DNA of 64,000 nucleotides from Candidatus Magasanikbacteria bacterium RIFOXYB2_FULL_38_10 (GCA_001783145.1 MFQT01000017.1:30119-94118); one strand, 5' to 3'; shown: positions 4,378 through 6,366, counted from the stretch's first letter. Program-made: numbers and translations. Notes: a model not told the origin generated them from the sequence alone.

Positions 4378-4456
4378 GTCACTAGTGTTTAAAAAAACTG
4401 ACAAAAAATTTTAATTGATTTTTTACCAAAAAGTTTCACCCACTAGCATACACCTC

Positions 4457-4485
4457 TTGACAAAATCTGTCAAATGTGCTATGAT
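4457..4485 (+). promoter_or_regulatory. consensus sigma70 promoter with extended -10 (TTGACA - 17 nt - TGcTATGAT) driving the high-GC ORF
   Basis: TTGACA at 4457-4462, a 17-nt spacer, TGn extended -10 at 4477-4479 and TATGAT at 4480-4485. The -35 overlaps a TTGACAaaatcTGTCAA palindrome. Confidence 0.65.
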
Positions 4486-4676
4486 ATGTAGTTAATTTGA
4501 TCTTTGATAATAGGGTGAAGGCTTTGTCCAACCAGATAAGTTTGGCTAAATTAAGGCAAAAATAAAGAAAATAAGATTAAATTTGTCCTAAATAAGCTTG
4601 ATTTATCCGGTTGGGCGAAGGTTTTCGCCCTCTCGAGGAAGGCTCCCCTTAAGGAGCTGTTTGGTAGGAGGTTCCT

Positions 4677-6155
4677 ATGGAACTCGTTCGTCAGTTCTTC
4701 GCGGCCCTGGTGTCCATGACGGACACGGCCATCGCGGCCGTGTTCCAGAGCCTGGAGCAGGAGAACGTGCTGACCAGCGCGCGTCTGCGCGCCGCGGTCA
4801 AGAAGAGCGAGGGTAACGAGTTCCGGCGCCTCAAGGTGGCTCTGGGCTATGCCGTGGACCACCAGCTCACCCTCTCCATCGCGAACATCCCGTTCATGAC
4901 GGACGAGGAGCTGGTGCTGGCGTTCCTGGAGGCCACGCCCGACCAGCGCGCCGAGTTCGTGGTGGCGCTGGACGAGATCACCGACGAGAGCGGTGTGCGC
5001 GGTCAGCAGGTGCTCTCCTCCGTGCAGGAGCGCCTCAACATCGAGAAGGCCGTGGCGCAACGCCAGGCCGAGGAGGAGCGTCTGGAGCGCGAGCTGGCCA
5101 AGAAGGCCGCCAGGCGCCTGGAGCTCCTGGAGCACACGGATCGCCTGATCCTGCACATCCTGCGGACCGGCGACGCCTGCGATATGACCGACGAATTGGC
5201 GGTCCAGTACATAGAGGATCAGCCCCTGGGCTACTTCAAGGTGCTCTCGGACATCGCCGGGCTCATCACCCCCGCCACCGCGGCGGAGGGCGAGGCGGCC
5301 CTGACCGGCCTGGACGCGCTGCGCGGCGGCACCATCGTGGACATGCTCACGGGCGCCACCCTGGCGGTGAAGGACGCGCGGAGCATCCGGGGTTGCTTCA
5401 TCACCGACGAGGAGGGCGCCAAGCGCCTCGTCAAGAAGCTCCCGAAGAAGGAGGGGGGAAGGGAGATCTACAGGCACCTGACGGGCGAGAGCCCCGAGGG
5501 TGTCCTGGAACGCCTGGACAGGCACGACGCGGAGTACGCGGCGCGCCAGAAGCGCGACGAGGCCTTCGTGGCCGAGGTGAAGAAGGCGATCGGCGAGGCC
5601 GACGCCACCTTCGTGGCCCTGGCCAAGGCGGTGGCCGAGCTGGTGGAGATCAACTCCGTCGGGACCAGCGGGCCCGAGGAGTGGAAGATGCGGATCATCC
5701 GCGACATCTCCGGCGAGTTCGGCGAGTTCCTGCGGCGGTCCTACATCGGCCAGTTGCGCCAGGCCTACCCCGACGCCTCGACGATCCCGGCGCTCAACGC
5801 CCGGATCGAGGAGGTCAAGGCGGCCTGGAACCAGGCGCGCGCGACGGGCGCCCCCTCCTACGAGCAGGATGCCATCCTCAAGGAGGTCCACGTCCTGGAG
5901 CGGCACCGGCAGTACCTGTCCGAGGCTCCCCAGCTCAAGCCGCAGCAGGGCAAGCCGACCGTCGGCACCCACGCCCACACCAAGGGCAAGGAGGGTGCCC
6001 CGGTCCTGACCGACCACTCCCGCGACGAGGACAGGGAGCGCAAGGAGCGCGAGCGGCGCGACGCCGACCGGAAGCGCACCCTGGACACCAAGGGCAAGGG
6101 CGGCGGCCAGCCCCAGCTCACGGGCAAGGGCAAGCACCAGAAGGGCAAGAAGTAG
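4677..6155 (+). CDS. hypothetical protein of foreign (high-GC) origin; alpha-helical, acidic/Arg-rich body with Lys/Gly-rich basic C-terminal tail
   Basis: 492-aa ORF preceded by GGAGG 5 nt upstream of the ATG. The composition is completely unlike the flanking genes. It is very GC-rich and nearly every codon ends in G or C, which identifies the plus frame as the coding frame. No motif that I recognise (no P-loop, no HExxH). The C-terminus is KGKGGGQPQLTGKGKHQKGKK. Confidence 0.7.
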   Translation: MELVRQFFAALVSMTDTAIAAVFQSLEQENVLTSARLRAAVKKSEGNEFRRLKVALGYAVDHQLTLSIANIPFMTDEELVLAFLEATPDQRAEFVVALDEITDESGVRGQQVLSSVQERLNIEKAVAQRQAEEERLERELAKKAARRLELLEHTDRLILHILRTGDACDMTDELAVQYIEDQPLGYFKVLSDIAGLITPATAAEGEAALTGLDALRGGTIVDMLTGATLAVKDARSIRGCFITDEEGAKRLVKKLPKKEGGREIYRHLTGESPEGVLERLDRHDAEYAARQKRDEAFVAEVKKAIGEADATFVALAKAVAELVEINSVGTSGPEEWKMRIIRDISGEFGEFLRRSYIGQLRQAYPDASTIPALNARIEEVKAAWNQARATGAPSYEQDAILKEVHVLERHRQYLSEAPQLKPQQGKPTVGTHAHTKGKEGAPVLTDHSRDEDRERKERERRDADRKRTLDTKGKGGGQPQLTGKGKHQKGKK

Positions 6156-6285
6156 CCCAGCTACTTCGGCTCCTCAAGTGCCCCCAGTGTCCCTGGCAAC
6201 ATTAACAACGCGGCGGCCAACTAAATAACCGCCCACAACGTCACATGATCTTTCAACAGGTTACAGAGGGTCGCAACGATCCTTA

Positions 6286-6340
6286 CCGGCAATCAAAGTT
6301 CAGTGCTAACACACTGTTCCCACGATTGCCGGTTTTTTTT
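6286..6340 (+). terminator. intrinsic terminator closing the high-GC cassette
   Basis: Stem ccggcaatc (6286-6294) / gattgccgg (6324-6332) with an inner cagtg/cactg stem, followed by a run of 8 T. Confidence 0.7.
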
Positions 6341-6366
6341 ATTTCTGCTAAAATGAAGTAAGGATT

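What the first reader, a model, noticed from the sequence alone, without database searches (positions are those of the whole stretch)
4440..6345. Self-contained high-GC foreign gene cassette embedded in an AT-rich genome
From about 4607 to about 6332 the base composition flips from the host's AT-rich style to very GC-rich. Inside is a 492-aa ORF (4677-6155) in which nearly every codon ends in G or C. That codon usage is typical of a high-GC donor (actinobacterial or myxobacterial style) and would be poorly matched to this host's AT-biased tRNA pool. The ORF is framed by host-style signals. Upstream is a near-perfect extended -10 sigma70 promoter at 4457-4485. A GGAGG Shine-Dalgarno lies 5 nt from the ATG. 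A strong two-tier hairpin plus T8 terminator sits at 6286-6340. The protein is all-alpha, rich in Glu, Ala, Arg and Leu, and ends in a Lys/Gly-rich basic tail (KGKGGGQPQLTGKGKHQKGKK). It has no P-loop, metal-binding or other motif I can recognise. The flanks carry several accessory features. A tRNA gene and an att-like repeat lie upstream. A perfect 25-bp inverted repeat lies downstream. The neighbouring gene is a translin-family gene. Together these make this the one clearly accessory, possibly mobile, locus in the window. The function of the product is unknown.
Basis: partly seen in the sequence, partly recalled or inferred. Interest (0 to 1): 0.85.

Follow-up and report, generated by a model that had tools for sequence, protein, structure and literature searches.

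The report
Persistently GC-rich hypervariable orphan gene
A real, strongly promoted gene of unknown function has stayed extremely GC-rich (95-99% G/C at silent sites) at one chromosomal spot across a family of AT-rich groundwater CPR bacteria, so it is a resident gene whose odd composition is actively maintained, not a fresh foreign import.

Summary
Window 4607-6332 is 69% GC in a 36.6% GC window. The 492-aa ORF has GC3 0.95, with its own consensus promoter, Shine-Dalgarno and terminator. Independent metagenome contigs bridge both junctions, so it is not a chimera.

The "recent foreign, possibly mobile cassette" reading is not supported:
- Homologues sit in the same slot (murG, tRNA-Lys | X | translin) in related Candidatus Magasanikbacteria genomes.
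- They are GC-rich there too (GC3 0.73-0.99), and their tree matches a flanking gene's tree.
- No homologue turned up outside this one family.
- Silent sites are near saturation between G and C, yet A/T stays excluded. Neutral decay predicts GC4 of about 0.70; observed values are 0.94-0.99. The GC is therefore actively maintained.

The coding sequence is also hypervariable. Between two congeners the untranslated regions are 75-80% identical, but similarity stops at the start codon and resumes at the stop codon.

The genome holds at least 17 other GC3-rich ORFs, many behind the same 27-nt promoter.

The cause of the GC maintenance is unresolved. I favour selection on the transcript, with GC-biased gene conversion close behind. 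The protein is mostly helical with a basic tail and matches no known family or fold.

The parts
4225..4322 (.). Direct repeat (4225-4255 and 4292-4322). The left copy starts a degenerate duplicate of the tRNA-Lys 3' half. It lies on the murG side of the tRNA and does not bracket the GC-rich gene.
   Evidence: family D3, 87% identity; sequence read; absent from L001
4302..4377 (-). tRNA-Lys (anticodon UUU), transcribed divergently from the GC-rich gene. It keeps this position in L001, G001, G006 and G003.
4445..4473 (-). Minus-strand promoter-like site (TTGACA-17-TATGCT) facing the tRNA-Lys. It overlaps the X promoter through the palindrome TTGACA-N5-TGTCAA (4457-4473). The same arrangement in L005 and L031 reads TTGACA-17-TATAAT.
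   Evidence: 10 of 12 matches; alignment, read by eye
4457..4485 (+). Extended -10 sigma70-type promoter of gene X (TTGACA-17-TATGAT with TG). The 27-nt sequence is conserved in most of the nine aligned homologous loci and recurs 17-18 times in the genome.
4491..4676 (+). 5' leader of about 185 nt (the transcription start is inferred from the -10 box). It holds a long stable hairpin (about 4501-4638) and the conserved motif GGTTGG plus a hairpin (4609-4632), found 58-82 nt upstream of the ATG in all nine loci with differing stem sequences. Shine-Dalgarno GGAGG is at 4667-4671.
   Evidence: MFE -75.1 kcal/mol, z -6.2; L001 leader, z -8.1
4677..6155 (+). Gene X: a 492-aa orphan protein with GC3 0.953. 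It has an N-terminal helical domain, a long helix 104-152, a small alpha/beta subdomain (about 190-255), helical hairpins 273-419, a charged helix 447-471 and a Lys/Gly-rich basic tail.
   Evidence: AlphaFold2 pLDDT 83 with 16 sequences
4551..6137 (-). 528-aa mirror antisense ORF, a by-product of sense GC3. Its first codon position is the complement of sense position 3, so no stop codon, all of which begin with T, can form. I do not consider it a gene.
   Evidence: (GC1/2/3 = 0.90/0.42/0.68)
6156..6285 (+). 3' untranslated region, 54% GC. It is partly conserved between relatives.
6286..6340 (+). Intrinsic terminator: outer stem 6286-6294 / 6324-6332 enclosing an inner hairpin, then T8 at 6333-6340.
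6366..6440 (.). Perfect 26-nt AT-rich inverted repeat with a 23-nt loop, between the X terminator and the translin start. It is absent from L001 and is not part of the unit.
6451..7029 (+). Translin-family gene, the conserved downstream neighbour of X in every locus with enough flank.

Best explanation
**Tier 1 (about 0.85).**
- The block is one autonomous, probably highly expressed transcription unit. In order: a consensus extended -10 promoter overlapping the divergent tRNA-Lys promoter, a structured leader of about 185 nt, a strong Shine-Dalgarno, a 492-aa ORF, a structured 3' UTR and an intrinsic terminator.
- It encodes a taxonomically restricted gene of one family of Candidatus Magasanikbacteria (CPR).
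- The gene has been inherited at the same chromosomal slot.
- Its coding sequence is both hypervariable and kept extremely GC-rich by an ongoing force that works against the host's AT-biased substitution regime.
- It may once have come from outside, but what we see now is maintenance, not a recent import.

**Tier 2 (about 0.35-0.4, inferred).**
- The maintaining force is selection on the transcript.
- G/C-only synonymous choices, GC-rich amino-acid choices and structured UTRs give an mRNA that is almost free of A/U runs and heavily folded.
- Such an mRNA would be unusually stable against RNases that cut AU-rich sites, or otherwise set apart from bulk AU-rich mRNA.

**Product (inferred).**
- The protein is a fast-evolving cytoplasmic helical protein.
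- Its Lys/Gly-rich tail suggests binding to a polyanion such as nucleic acid.

**Shown versus inferred.**
- Shown: reality, linkage, synteny, family restriction, the coding frame, persistence of GC, hypervariability, and conserved promoter, leader and terminator.
- Inferred: high expression, transcript-level selection, and the protein's role.
For: **Real and linked**
- In a different sample and study, two contigs span 4349-5559 and 5625-6900 with no mismatches. A soil metagenome contig spans 4526-4736. Depth matches the flanks.

**Same slot, also GC-rich**
- L001: X is 45% identical at the amino-acid level and has GC3 0.994, while the flanking proteins are 70-83% identical.
- G001, G006, G003 and L006 show the same arrangement.

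**Family-restricted**
- Found in 4 of 7 genomes of family f1 and in 0 of 144 genomes of nine other families of the order.
- Only 13 representatives among 1.84 billion proteins.

**Vertical descent**
- The X tree has the same topology as the GT2 tree, with branches about 4-5 times longer.

**Active maintenance**
- At 4-fold sites under conserved residues, third-position identity is 0.40-0.65, against a two-state floor of 0.5. Nearly all differences are G/C swaps.
- Flank 4-fold identity is 0.41, against a floor of 0.27.
- A simple F81 estimate predicts GC4 of about 0.70 since the window/L001 split. Observed values are 0.95, 0.99 and 0.94.
- GC3 of 0.95 or more occurs on two separate branches of the family tree, each next to a sister at 0.63-0.79.
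- The G-ending codons TTG and AGG are also avoided, and amino-acid use is shifted towards GC-rich codons.

**Hypervariable coding sequence**
- Between congeners G003 and G006, nucleotide similarity of 75-86% stops 10 nt into the CDS and resumes 4-8 nt after the stop codon.
- The same trend holds for window, L001 and G001.

**Transcript-level signal**
- Leader z-scores are -6.2 and -8.1; the 3' UTR gives -4.1.
- The coding mRNA is more structured than synonymous-codon shuffles in all five homologues tested, z -3.4 to -7.4. Eight control genes average about -2.1.
- A/U-only 4-mers number 0-1.4 per kb in X of the window, L001 and L002 (6-16 per kb in L004 and L005), against about 200-240 per kb in host genes.
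- UTR segments next to the CDS are 54-59% GC, against 16-38% for host intergenic DNA.
- The promoter is conserved across most of nine loci, and a leader hairpin with differing stems is present in all nine.

**Real protein**
- AlphaFold2 pLDDT rises from 65 to 83 when the alignment grows from 5 to 16 sequences.
- Codon position 3 is the most saturated position.
Against: - No expression data exist. No RNA run holding this sequence was listed.
- Housekeeping genes that should be highly expressed, such as ribosomal proteins and EF-Tu, are AT-rich (GC3 0.25-0.39). High expression alone therefore does not demand GC.
- The excess mRNA structure is not unique. One other GC-rich orphan scores z -5.0, and the controls average about -2, so part of the signal comes from the method or from amino-acid pattern.
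- Holding about 490 silent sites at G/C by selection needs a sizeable population-scaled coefficient per site.
- The exact coincidence of hypervariability and GC-richness over the CDS is explained more economically by a recombination-linked bias, which is rival 1.
- GC3 varies from 0.54 to 0.99 among family members, so the force is lineage-dependent.
- The protein's function is unsupported by any homology or fold match.
Confidence: 0.45

Rival explanations
1. GC-biased gene conversion at an allele-exchange hotspot. Gene X is under diversifying selection. Divergent alleles are often swapped between related cells by homologous recombination, with the conserved promoter/leader and 3' UTR serving as homology arms. 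Heteroduplex mismatches occur mainly inside the divergent CDS. GC-biased repair of those mismatches drives all free sites there towards G/C.
For: - Hypervariability and GC-richness coincide exactly with the CDS, while the UTRs on both sides are conserved.
- GC pressure acts on all codon positions and on amino-acid composition. G and C are about equal at position 3, at 0.47 and 0.49.
- Two other GC-rich orphan genes of this genome also have homologues of only about 42% identity in relatives, and those are GC-elevated too.
- Translin shows a local recombination signal: L001-L004 are 88% identical against 70% to the window.
- From my own knowledge, not checked here: recombination-associated GC enrichment in bacteria was proposed by Lassalle et al. 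2015.
Against: - As far as I know, an effect of this size (GC3 0.99 in a 37-39% GC genome) is unprecedented for bacterial gene conversion.
- The X tree is congruent with the flanking GT2 tree at the scale tested.
- The mRNA has more structure than synonymous shuffles, which gene conversion does not predict.
- There are strong preferences among G/C-ending codons, for example GGC 25 against GGG 4.
- No population recombination data were available.
Confidence: 0.25
2. Codon-defined translation class. X and the other GC-rich genes are written almost wholly in codons read by C34 and G34 tRNAs, which bulk AT-rich mRNAs hardly use. Their translation would then be insulated from the rest of the proteome or separately regulated. 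This mirrors TTA/bldA control in Streptomyces.
For: - All 13 C34 tRNAs are retained in an 854-kb genome.
- Lys is AAG in 33 of 33 codons, Glu is GAG in 49 of 52, and Gln is CAG in 23 of 24.
- The gene sits back-to-back with tRNA-Lys(UUU), whose cognate codon AAA it never uses.
- At least 10 GC-rich genes share one stereotyped promoter.
Against: - C over U in two-fold boxes (TTC 13 against TTT 0, and so on) involves the same tRNA, so choice of isoacceptor cannot explain it.
- TTG and AGG are avoided although they end in G and have their own tRNAs.
- The adjacent untranslated sequence is also GC-enriched.
- The overlapping promoter arrangement with the tRNA is not kept in L001.
Confidence: 0.1
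3. One reading: a cassette recently, or repeatedly, acquired from a high-GC donor such as an actinobacterium or myxobacterium, possibly mobile and targeted next to the tRNA.
For: - Codon usage looks like that of high-GC bacteria.
- A remnant of a tRNA 3'-end duplication lies nearby.
- The same genome does hold apparently genuine GC-rich imports: a SufS xenologue, MopE-repeat proteins and an IS110-like transposase.
- Origin by an ancient transfer at the base of the family cannot be excluded.
Against: - The slot and the promoter/leader are conserved across genomes whose flanking proteins are only 50-75% identical.
- The gene tree is congruent with the flank tree.
- No homologue appears in any high-GC context.
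- Pattern scans of viral, metagenome and genome collections returned nothing.
- The repeat does not bracket the gene, and no recombinase gene is present.
- Silent-site saturation without any drift towards A/T rules out mere lack of time.
Confidence: 0.07
4. Artefact: an assembly chimera or a contaminant fragment. Alternatively, the block is a structured non-coding RNA, or the antisense ORF is the real gene.
For: - Many family members lie on short contigs of 1.6-2.5 kb, so assemblies tend to break near the island.
- The antisense mirror frame is open in all five homologues tested.
Against: - Contigs from independent samples bridge both junctions with no mismatches and at equal depth.
- The same architecture was assembled independently in at least six other genomes.
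- The GC3 > GC1 > GC2 periodicity is strong.
- The start codon, Shine-Dalgarno and N-terminus are conserved.
- The structure model is confident.
- No Rfam match was found.
- The open antisense frame follows automatically from sense GC3.
Confidence: 0.02

Closest known systems
Horizontally acquired genomic islets and phage 'morons' (autonomous promoter-gene-terminator units of atypical composition)
   Same: It is a single gene with its own sigma70-type promoter and intrinsic terminator. It is inserted between conserved genes, and its base composition differs sharply from its surroundings.
   Different: - It does not lie in a prophage.
- It is conserved at one chromosomal slot across a bacterial family.
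- Its gene tree is congruent with its flanks.
- Its composition has not ameliorated despite synonymous divergence near saturation.
- No donor lineage is known.
Borrelia vls antigenic-variation locus (a GC-rich, fast-evolving locus in an AT-rich genome; cited from my own knowledge, not checked here)
   Same: It is a locus whose GC content lies far above the genome's. That feature is conserved between lineages although the sequence diverges fast, and it has been linked to recombination.
   Different: - X is a single copy in the genome, with no silent cassettes.
- GC skew is weak.
- There is no signal peptide or surface anchor.
- The GC3 is far more extreme.
bldA / TTA-codon regulation in Streptomyces, and codon-biased translation of stress genes (from my own knowledge)
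   Same: A small set of genes is written in codons that the rest of the genome rarely uses, with dedicated tRNAs available.
   Different: - Here the bias affects every codon family, the first codon positions and the neighbouring UTR sequence.
- It therefore looks like a whole-sequence GC pressure rather than dependence on one rare tRNA.
- No regulated tRNA has been shown.
Taxonomically restricted (orphan) genes of CPR/Patescibacteria
   Same: It has no Pfam, NCBIfam, PHROG or PADLOC family and no informative fold match. It is confined to one family and evolves fast.
   Different: Orphan genes normally share the host's composition. This one, together with a set of companions behind the same promoter, is compositionally the opposite of its host.

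Membership tests
tRNA-targeted integrative element / genomic island | Island bracketed by direct repeats (attL/attR) derived from the tRNA 3' end | tested here: not met
   The only tRNA-derived repeat (4225-4255 / 4292-4322) lies on the 3' side of the tRNA, towards murG. Its copies are 67 bp apart. Gene X lies on the 5' side.
tRNA-targeted integrative element / genomic island | Integrase, recombinase or other mobility gene within or beside the island | tested here: not met
   Window 1-10000 contains mraY, ftsW, murG, X, translin, a GT2 glycosyltransferase, a Mur ligase and small ORFs. The four products searched against Pfam gave no recombinase hit.
tRNA-targeted integrative element / genomic island | Atypical base composition relative to the host | tested here: met
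   69% GC against 36.6%, and GC3 0.95 against 0.31-0.43.
Recent horizontal acquisition | Homologues in a donor lineage, with a gene tree incongruent with the host tree | tested here: not met
   All 13 family representatives are orphans. Ten of the eleven loci with DNA are more GC-rich than their flanks or contig ends. The X tree has the same topology as the GT2 tree. The family is confined to f1.
Recent horizontal acquisition | Composition decaying towards the host's with time (amelioration) | tested here: not met
   GC4 is 0.94-0.99 where about 0.70 is expected after the window/L001 split alone. G/C swaps at silent sites are near saturation.
Phage moron | Own promoter and factor-independent terminator around a single gene | tested here: met
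Phage moron | Located within a prophage | tested here: not met
   The gene lies inside the cell-wall/division gene cluster. There was no significant PHROG match.
Known structured RNA (Rfam) | Match to a covariance model at or near the gathering score | tested here: not met
   Only the tRNA passes. All other matches lie far below the gathering scores.
Any curated protein family (Pfam, NCBIfam, PHROGs, PADLOC) | Profile match above the curated threshold | tested here: not met
   The best Pfam hit was 15.8 bits against a cut-off of 19.8. The other libraries gave nothing significant.
Any solved or predicted fold | Structural match clearly above background | tested here: inconclusive
   Foldseek against PDB and BFVD gave no hit at E 0.001 or better. 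VIA-align's best Z was 8.3, on 64-residue helical hairpins. Atlas TM-scores were 0.27 or less.
vls-like antigenic variation system | Expression site plus an array of silent paralogous cassettes | tested here: not met
   X has one match in its own genome.
Codon-dependent (bldA-like) regulon | Genes enriched in host-rare codons, with dedicated tRNAs present | tested here: met
Codon-dependent (bldA-like) regulon | Conditional supply of the decoding tRNA controls translation | not testable with these tools
   This needs tRNA quantification or reporter assays.

The most novel reading that the evidence does not exclude
Magasanikbacteria, and perhaps other CPR bacteria, keep a distinct class of genes marked by three features:
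- a stereotyped 27-nt consensus promoter plus a structured leader;
- a coding sequence that is hypervariable between close relatives;
- GC content driven far above the genome's, with GC3 up to 0.99.

One reading is that composition itself acts as a functional code, giving mRNAs that escape AU-directed decay or use a separate tRNA subset. The other is that these loci show the strongest GC-biased gene conversion yet seen in a bacterium. Under either reading, GC-rich islands in AT-rich genomes are not always footprints of recent transfer.
Probability: 0.3. Interest if true: 0.85.

Novelty: new variant of a known kind. Interest (0 to 1): 0.75.

Why it matters
- **Annotation practice.** Atypical base composition is routinely read as recent horizontal transfer that will decay with time. 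Here a gene keeps 95-99% G/C at silent sites in a 37-39% GC genome while those sites turn over to saturation. It does so at a fixed chromosomal position across a bacterial family, which contradicts the default reading.
- **An open question made testable.** The locus offers a sharply bounded natural case for asking whether selection on nucleic-acid composition or GC-biased gene conversion shapes bacterial GC content. Both predictions can be tested on one 1.5-kb gene with conserved flanks.
- **Possible gene class.** A wider set of strongly promoted, GC-rich, fast-evolving genes in an episymbiotic CPR lineage may be candidates for host or phage interaction.
- **Assembly warning.** Assemblies tend to break at such islands, so these genes are probably under-represented in CPR bins.

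Tried and rejected
**Function searches that led nowhere**
- Pfam, PHROGs, NCBIfam and PADLOC scans.
- A PDB sequence profile search. The best hits were E 0.062 and 0.2, including ZapA, and are not meaningful.
- ESM Atlas look-alikes. The top score was 0.84, below the reliable range.
- Foldseek against PDB and BFVD, VIA-align wide and Atlas shape searches on two models. These returned only generic helical hairpins.

**Wider homologue searches**
- Pattern-based scans of genome contigs, viral contigs and metagenome contigs found no relatives.
- The first scan, using the 5-sequence alignment, failed for lack of a conserved stretch.

**RNA structure**
- An RNAalifold consensus on the 9-locus leader alignment gave no pairs, because the MAFFT alignment of the variable leader is poor.
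- I relied instead on per-sequence folds at the anchored motif.

**Expression and reads**
- No RNA holder was listed for this sequence.
- Only contigs, not raw reads, could be laid, so I got no read-pair, start-site or polymorphism data.

**Literature**
- Four full-text searches found no description of persistently GC-rich genes in CPR genomes.

**Ideas considered and dropped**
- Translational optimisation: ribosomal genes have GC3 0.25-0.39.
- An antisense gene.
- A diversity-generating retroelement target or a vls-like system: the gene is single-copy and the whole CDS is affected.
- Mutually exclusive promoters linking X to tRNA-Lys as a conserved regulatory switch: the arrangement is lost in L001.

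**Not run**
- Complex prediction, because I make no binding claim.
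Full report
**1. Observation**

The compositional flip is real and sharp.
- GC in 200-nt windows goes from 0.29 (4401-4600) to 0.62-0.73 (4601-6200) and back to 0.32 (6301-6500).
- No other 500-nt window of the 64-kb window exceeds 0.50 GC. The mean is 0.366 and the sd 0.063.
- ORF 4677-6155 (+) encodes 492 aa with GC1/GC2/GC3 = 0.69/0.42/0.95, the pattern of a true coding frame. Its neighbours have GC3 0.31-0.43.

- The promoter is TTGACA-17-TATGAT with a TG extension at 4457-4485, 11 of 12 matches.
- GGAGG lies 5 nt before the ATG.
- A two-tier hairpin plus T8 lies at 6286-6340.
- tRNA-Lys(UUU) lies at 4302-4377 on the minus strand.
- A duplicate of the tRNA 3' end lies at 4225-4255.
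- A perfect inverted repeat of 26 nt, not 25, lies at 6366-6440.
- A translin-family gene lies downstream.

**2. Not an artefact**

Logan contigs from four groundwater and soil runs were laid on 3900-6900.
- In a sample and study other than the probable source, one contig covers 4349-5559 and another covers 5625-6900. Both have no mismatches.
- A soil metagenome contig covers 4526-4736.
- Depth over the island equals that of the flanks: 11.7 against 12.4, and 5.9-8.3 against 9.5.
- Contigs break only at the tRNA, which many organisms share.

**3. Host**

- The gene order is mraY-ftsW-murG, then tRNA-Lys, X, translin, a GT2 glycosyltransferase, a Mur ligase and a DivIC-like gene.
- The genome is 854 kb and 39.4% GC, in 20 contigs.
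- The runs that hold the sequence are groundwater and soil metagenomes.
- A genome of the same genus is titled Candidatus Magasanikbacteria bacterium. The host is therefore a CPR/Patescibacteria organism.

**4. Relatives and synteny**

- A search of 5.8 billion proteins gave two homologues, at 41% and 39% identity.
- An exhaustive profile search of 1.84 billion representatives gave 13 family members.
- Where flanks are available, the gene lies in the same slot upstream of translin. This holds for L001, G001 and G006, G003, which carries a 353-aa short form, and L006, which has an M28 peptidase inserted.
- A profile search of 151 genomes of the order found the family in 4 of 7 genomes of family f1 and in 0 of 144 genomes of nine other families.
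- The X tree has the topology (window, L001, G001) | (L006, (G006, G003)), identical to the flanking GT2 tree. Its branches are about 4-5 times longer.
- This is vertical inheritance of a taxonomically restricted gene.

**5. The GC-richness is conserved and maintained**

GC3 across eleven loci, against flanks or contig ends at 0.36-0.47:

| Locus | GC3 |
|---|---|
| window | 0.95 |
| L001 | 0.99 |
| L002 | 0.96 |
| L035 | 0.97 |
| G006 | 0.83 |
| G001 | 0.79 |
| L006 | 0.79 |
| L007 | 0.78 |
| G003 | 0.73 |
| L008 | 0.63 |
| L036 | 0.54 |

L008 is the exception to the contrast: its short flank is 0.56 GC.

- Between window and L001 the flanking proteins are 70-83% identical. Their 4-fold sites are 41% identical, against a saturation floor of 27%.
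- In X, 4-fold sites under conserved residues are 64% identical against a two-state floor of 50%. For deeper pairs the figure is 40-46%. Nearly all differences are G/C swaps.
- Silent sites have therefore turned over about as much as those of the flanks, but only between G and C.
- A simple F81 calculation from the flank data predicts that a gene starting at GC4 = 1.0 would now be at about 0.71. Observed GC4 is 0.95, 0.99 and 0.94. That calculation is my inference from a simple model.
- On the family tree, GC3 of 0.95 or more appears on two separate branches. Each has a sister at 0.63-0.79. The value therefore moves in a lineage-specific way and does not decay clock-like.
- The pressure is on GC as such. 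The G-ending codons TTG and AGG are avoided in favour of CTG/CTC and CGC/CGG. Arg, Ala, Glu and Asp are enriched, while Lys, Asn, Ile and Phe are depleted.

**6. The coding sequence is hypervariable**

- G003 and G006 are congeners. Their DNA is 86% identical over murG, 75% over the tRNA, promoter and leader, and 80% over translin and GT2.
- Similarity stops 10 nt after the X start codon and resumes 4-8 nt after the stop codon.
- The two proteins are 486 and 353 aa long. They align at 41% identity over only 158 residues.
- The window, L001 and G001 show the same trend. Flanking genes align end to end at 70-76% nucleotide identity, whereas X aligns only in its first 400 nt or in short patches.

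**7. Anatomy and conservation of the unit**

- The 27-nt promoter (TTGACAAAA, six variable bases, AAATGTGCTATA) is conserved in most of the nine aligned loci, although the proteins have drifted to about 25% identity.
- In most loci its spacer completes a palindrome, TTGACA-N5-TGTCAA.
- The right half of that palindrome serves as the -35 box of a minus-strand promoter facing the tRNA-Lys. This reads TTGACA-17-TATAAT in L005 and L031, and TATGCT in the window and G001 (read by eye).
- The two promoters overlap by 17 bp. In L001 the arrangement is lost, so I do not build on it.
- The leader folds into a long hairpin. MFE is -75.1 kcal/mol with z -6.2 in the window, and z is -8.1 in L001.
- All nine loci carry the motif G-R-Y-TGG followed by a hairpin 58-82 nt upstream of the ATG, with differing stem sequences.
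- The 3' UTR and terminator are also structured, z -4.1.
- GC enrichment spills into the UTR segments next to the CDS, at 0.54-0.59 against 0.16-0.38 for host intergenic DNA. The first 115 nt of the leader are only 0.27 GC.

**8. Codons and tRNAs**

- The genome encodes 44 anticodons, including all C34 species, so nothing in X lacks a cognate tRNA.
- The usage is nonetheless the opposite of the host's likely highly expressed genes. Ribosomal-protein, EF-G and EF-Tu genes have GC3 0.25-0.39.
- Ordinary translational optimisation is therefore excluded.

**9. RNA-level tests**

- Mean local folding energy of the native CDS was compared with synonymous-codon shuffles. It gave z = -3.4, -7.1, -7.4, -6.0 and -5.1 in five homologues.
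- Three host genes gave -2.8, -2.3 and +1.5. Five other GC-rich genes of the same genome gave -2.7, -1.6, -1.9, -2.3 and -5.0.
- The excess is suggestive but not exclusive to X.
- A/U-only tetramers number 0-1.4 per kb in X of the window, L001 and L002, and 6-16 per kb in L004 and L005. Host genes have 200-240 per kb.

**10. Both strands**

- The 528-aa minus-strand ORF is the mirror frame. Its first codon position is the complement of sense position 3.
- With that position G/C, no stop codon can arise, and the frame is open in all five homologues.
- Sense position 3 is the most saturated position.
- The sense frame has the Shine-Dalgarno, a conserved N-terminus and a confident fold.
- I treat the antisense ORF as a by-product.

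**11. The protein**

- With 16 sequences, AlphaFold2 gives pLDDT 83.
- The model has an N-terminal helical domain, a long helix 104-152, a small alpha/beta subdomain around 190-255, helical hairpins 273-419, a disordered linker, a highly charged helix 447-471 and a Lys/Gly-rich tail.
- There is no signal peptide or membrane segment (by inspection).
- No sequence family or fold match is informative.
- The suggestion that the basic tail binds a polyanion is inference only.

**12. Genome context**

- X is not alone. The genome has at least 17 other GC3-rich ORFs on nine contigs.
- Some look like genuine imports. These include a SufS-like enzyme whose family relatives are only 31-33% identical and of normal GC, MopE-repeat proteins, an OmpA-domain protein and an IS110-like transposase.
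- Two others are orphans with homologues of about 42% identity in relatives, which are GC-elevated too.
- The 27-nt promoter recurs 17-18 times. At least 10 copies precede ORFs with GC3 of 0.6 or more. Other copies precede what I read as RNase P RNA (by its conserved motif) and an RRM protein.
- The motif also recurs in G001, G003 and G006, often ahead of GC-elevated sequence.

**13. Interpretation**

Firmly supported: this is a resident, family-specific, autonomously transcribed and hypervariable gene whose GC-richness is actively maintained.

What maintains it is not settled.
- I favour selection on the transcript (about 0.35-0.4). The reasons are the structured and conserved UTRs, the excess coding-region structure, the near absence of A/U runs and the spill-over of GC into adjacent UTR.
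- GC-biased gene conversion at an allele-exchange hotspot is close behind (about 0.25). One cause would then explain why hypervariability and GC-richness coincide exactly with the CDS.
- A codon-defined translation class (about 0.1) fits less well. The bias also affects first codon positions, two-fold boxes read by a single tRNA, and untranslated sequence.
- Recent or recurrent import from a high-GC donor (about 0.07) is largely excluded.
- Artefact (about 0.02) is also largely excluded.

**14. Comparison with known systems**

- The architecture resembles a phage moron or a small genomic islet. The defining features of mobility and recency were tested and not met.
- The conserved GC excess of a fast-evolving locus in an AT-rich genome recalls the Borrelia vls locus. 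X, however, has no silent cassettes, only a weak GC skew and no sign of surface location.
- The codon contrast recalls bldA/TTA control in mirror image.
- These comparisons, the amelioration model (Lawrence and Ochman) and bacterial biased gene conversion (Lassalle et al.) are cited from my own knowledge.
- Four literature searches found no report of this phenomenon in CPR bacteria.

**15. Verdict**

- Observation confirmed; interpretation partly supported.
- The interest lies in the non-ameliorating, hypervariable, strongly promoted nature of the gene, and in the hint of a wider gene class, rather than in a foreign cassette.

Noticed in passing
Own genome outside the window: G000 C1:9-5047, C2:6638-7912, C3:4694-5275, C3:12220-12876, C10:26243-26857, C10:36987-38237, C11:3-2673, C15:25979-31750, C16:13467-13850, C16:99202-106662, C20:2-391: At least 17 further ORFs have GC3 0.70-0.97 in a 39% GC genome. 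They include MopE-type Cys-rich repeat proteins, an IS110-like transposase, a SufS-like aminotransferase (an apparent xenologue), an OmpA-domain protein and several orphans. One orphan ends in a Lys/Ala/Pro-rich basic tail.
   Followed up: partly
Window 4457-4483, plus 16-17 other sites in G000 (for example C3:13023-13049, C10:18287-18313, C10:36867-36893, C16:13021-13047): A stereotyped 27-nt promoter (TTGACAAAA, six variable bases, AAATGTGCTATA) recurs across the genome. Three copies are identical 27-mers. At least 10 copies precede GC3-rich ORFs, and others precede what I read as RNase P RNA (by its conserved motif) and an RRM protein. The motif also recurs in G001 (16 copies), G006 (9) and G003 (2).
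   Followed up: partly
Window 4047-4140: A conserved non-coding stretch of about 90 nt lies between the murG terminator hairpin (4016-4046) and a second terminator-like hairpin plus T-run (about 4123-4140). Its 3' part aligns with L001 at 72% identity. It may be a small RNA, but it has no Rfam match.
   Followed up: no
Window 4237-4290: A degenerate copy of the 3' half of tRNA-Lys (a pseudo-tRNA or att remnant) lies just downstream of the intact tRNA. It is absent from L001 and probably marks an old integration or excision event unrelated to gene X.
   Followed up: partly
Window 6366-6440: A perfect 26-nt AT-rich inverted repeat with a 23-nt loop lies between the X terminator and the translin start. 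It is absent from L001. It may be a MITE-like insertion or a regulatory hairpin. The TTG-start ORF 6388-7029 that runs through it is probably over-extended; the conserved translin start is the ATG at 6451.
   Followed up: no
Translin genes of L001 (6301-6876) and L004 (742-1317): Translin is 88% identical between L001 and G001 but about 70% identical to the window. MurG and GT2 are roughly equidistant among the three. This suggests a local recombination event.
   Followed up: no
L004 (G001) gene X, 1489-2892 minus strand: Partial and uneven relaxation of the codon bias: Glu is GAA 32 against GAG 11, yet Lys is AAG 30 against AAA 2.
   Followed up: no
L002, L007, L008, L035, L036 (contigs of 1.7-2.5 kb); G001 C2 and C10 contig ends: Many family members sit on very short contigs that end just outside the GC-rich gene. 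Two promoter copies in G001 lie 42 nt from a contig end. Assemblies seem to break at these islands, so such genes may be under-represented in CPR bins.
   Followed up: no
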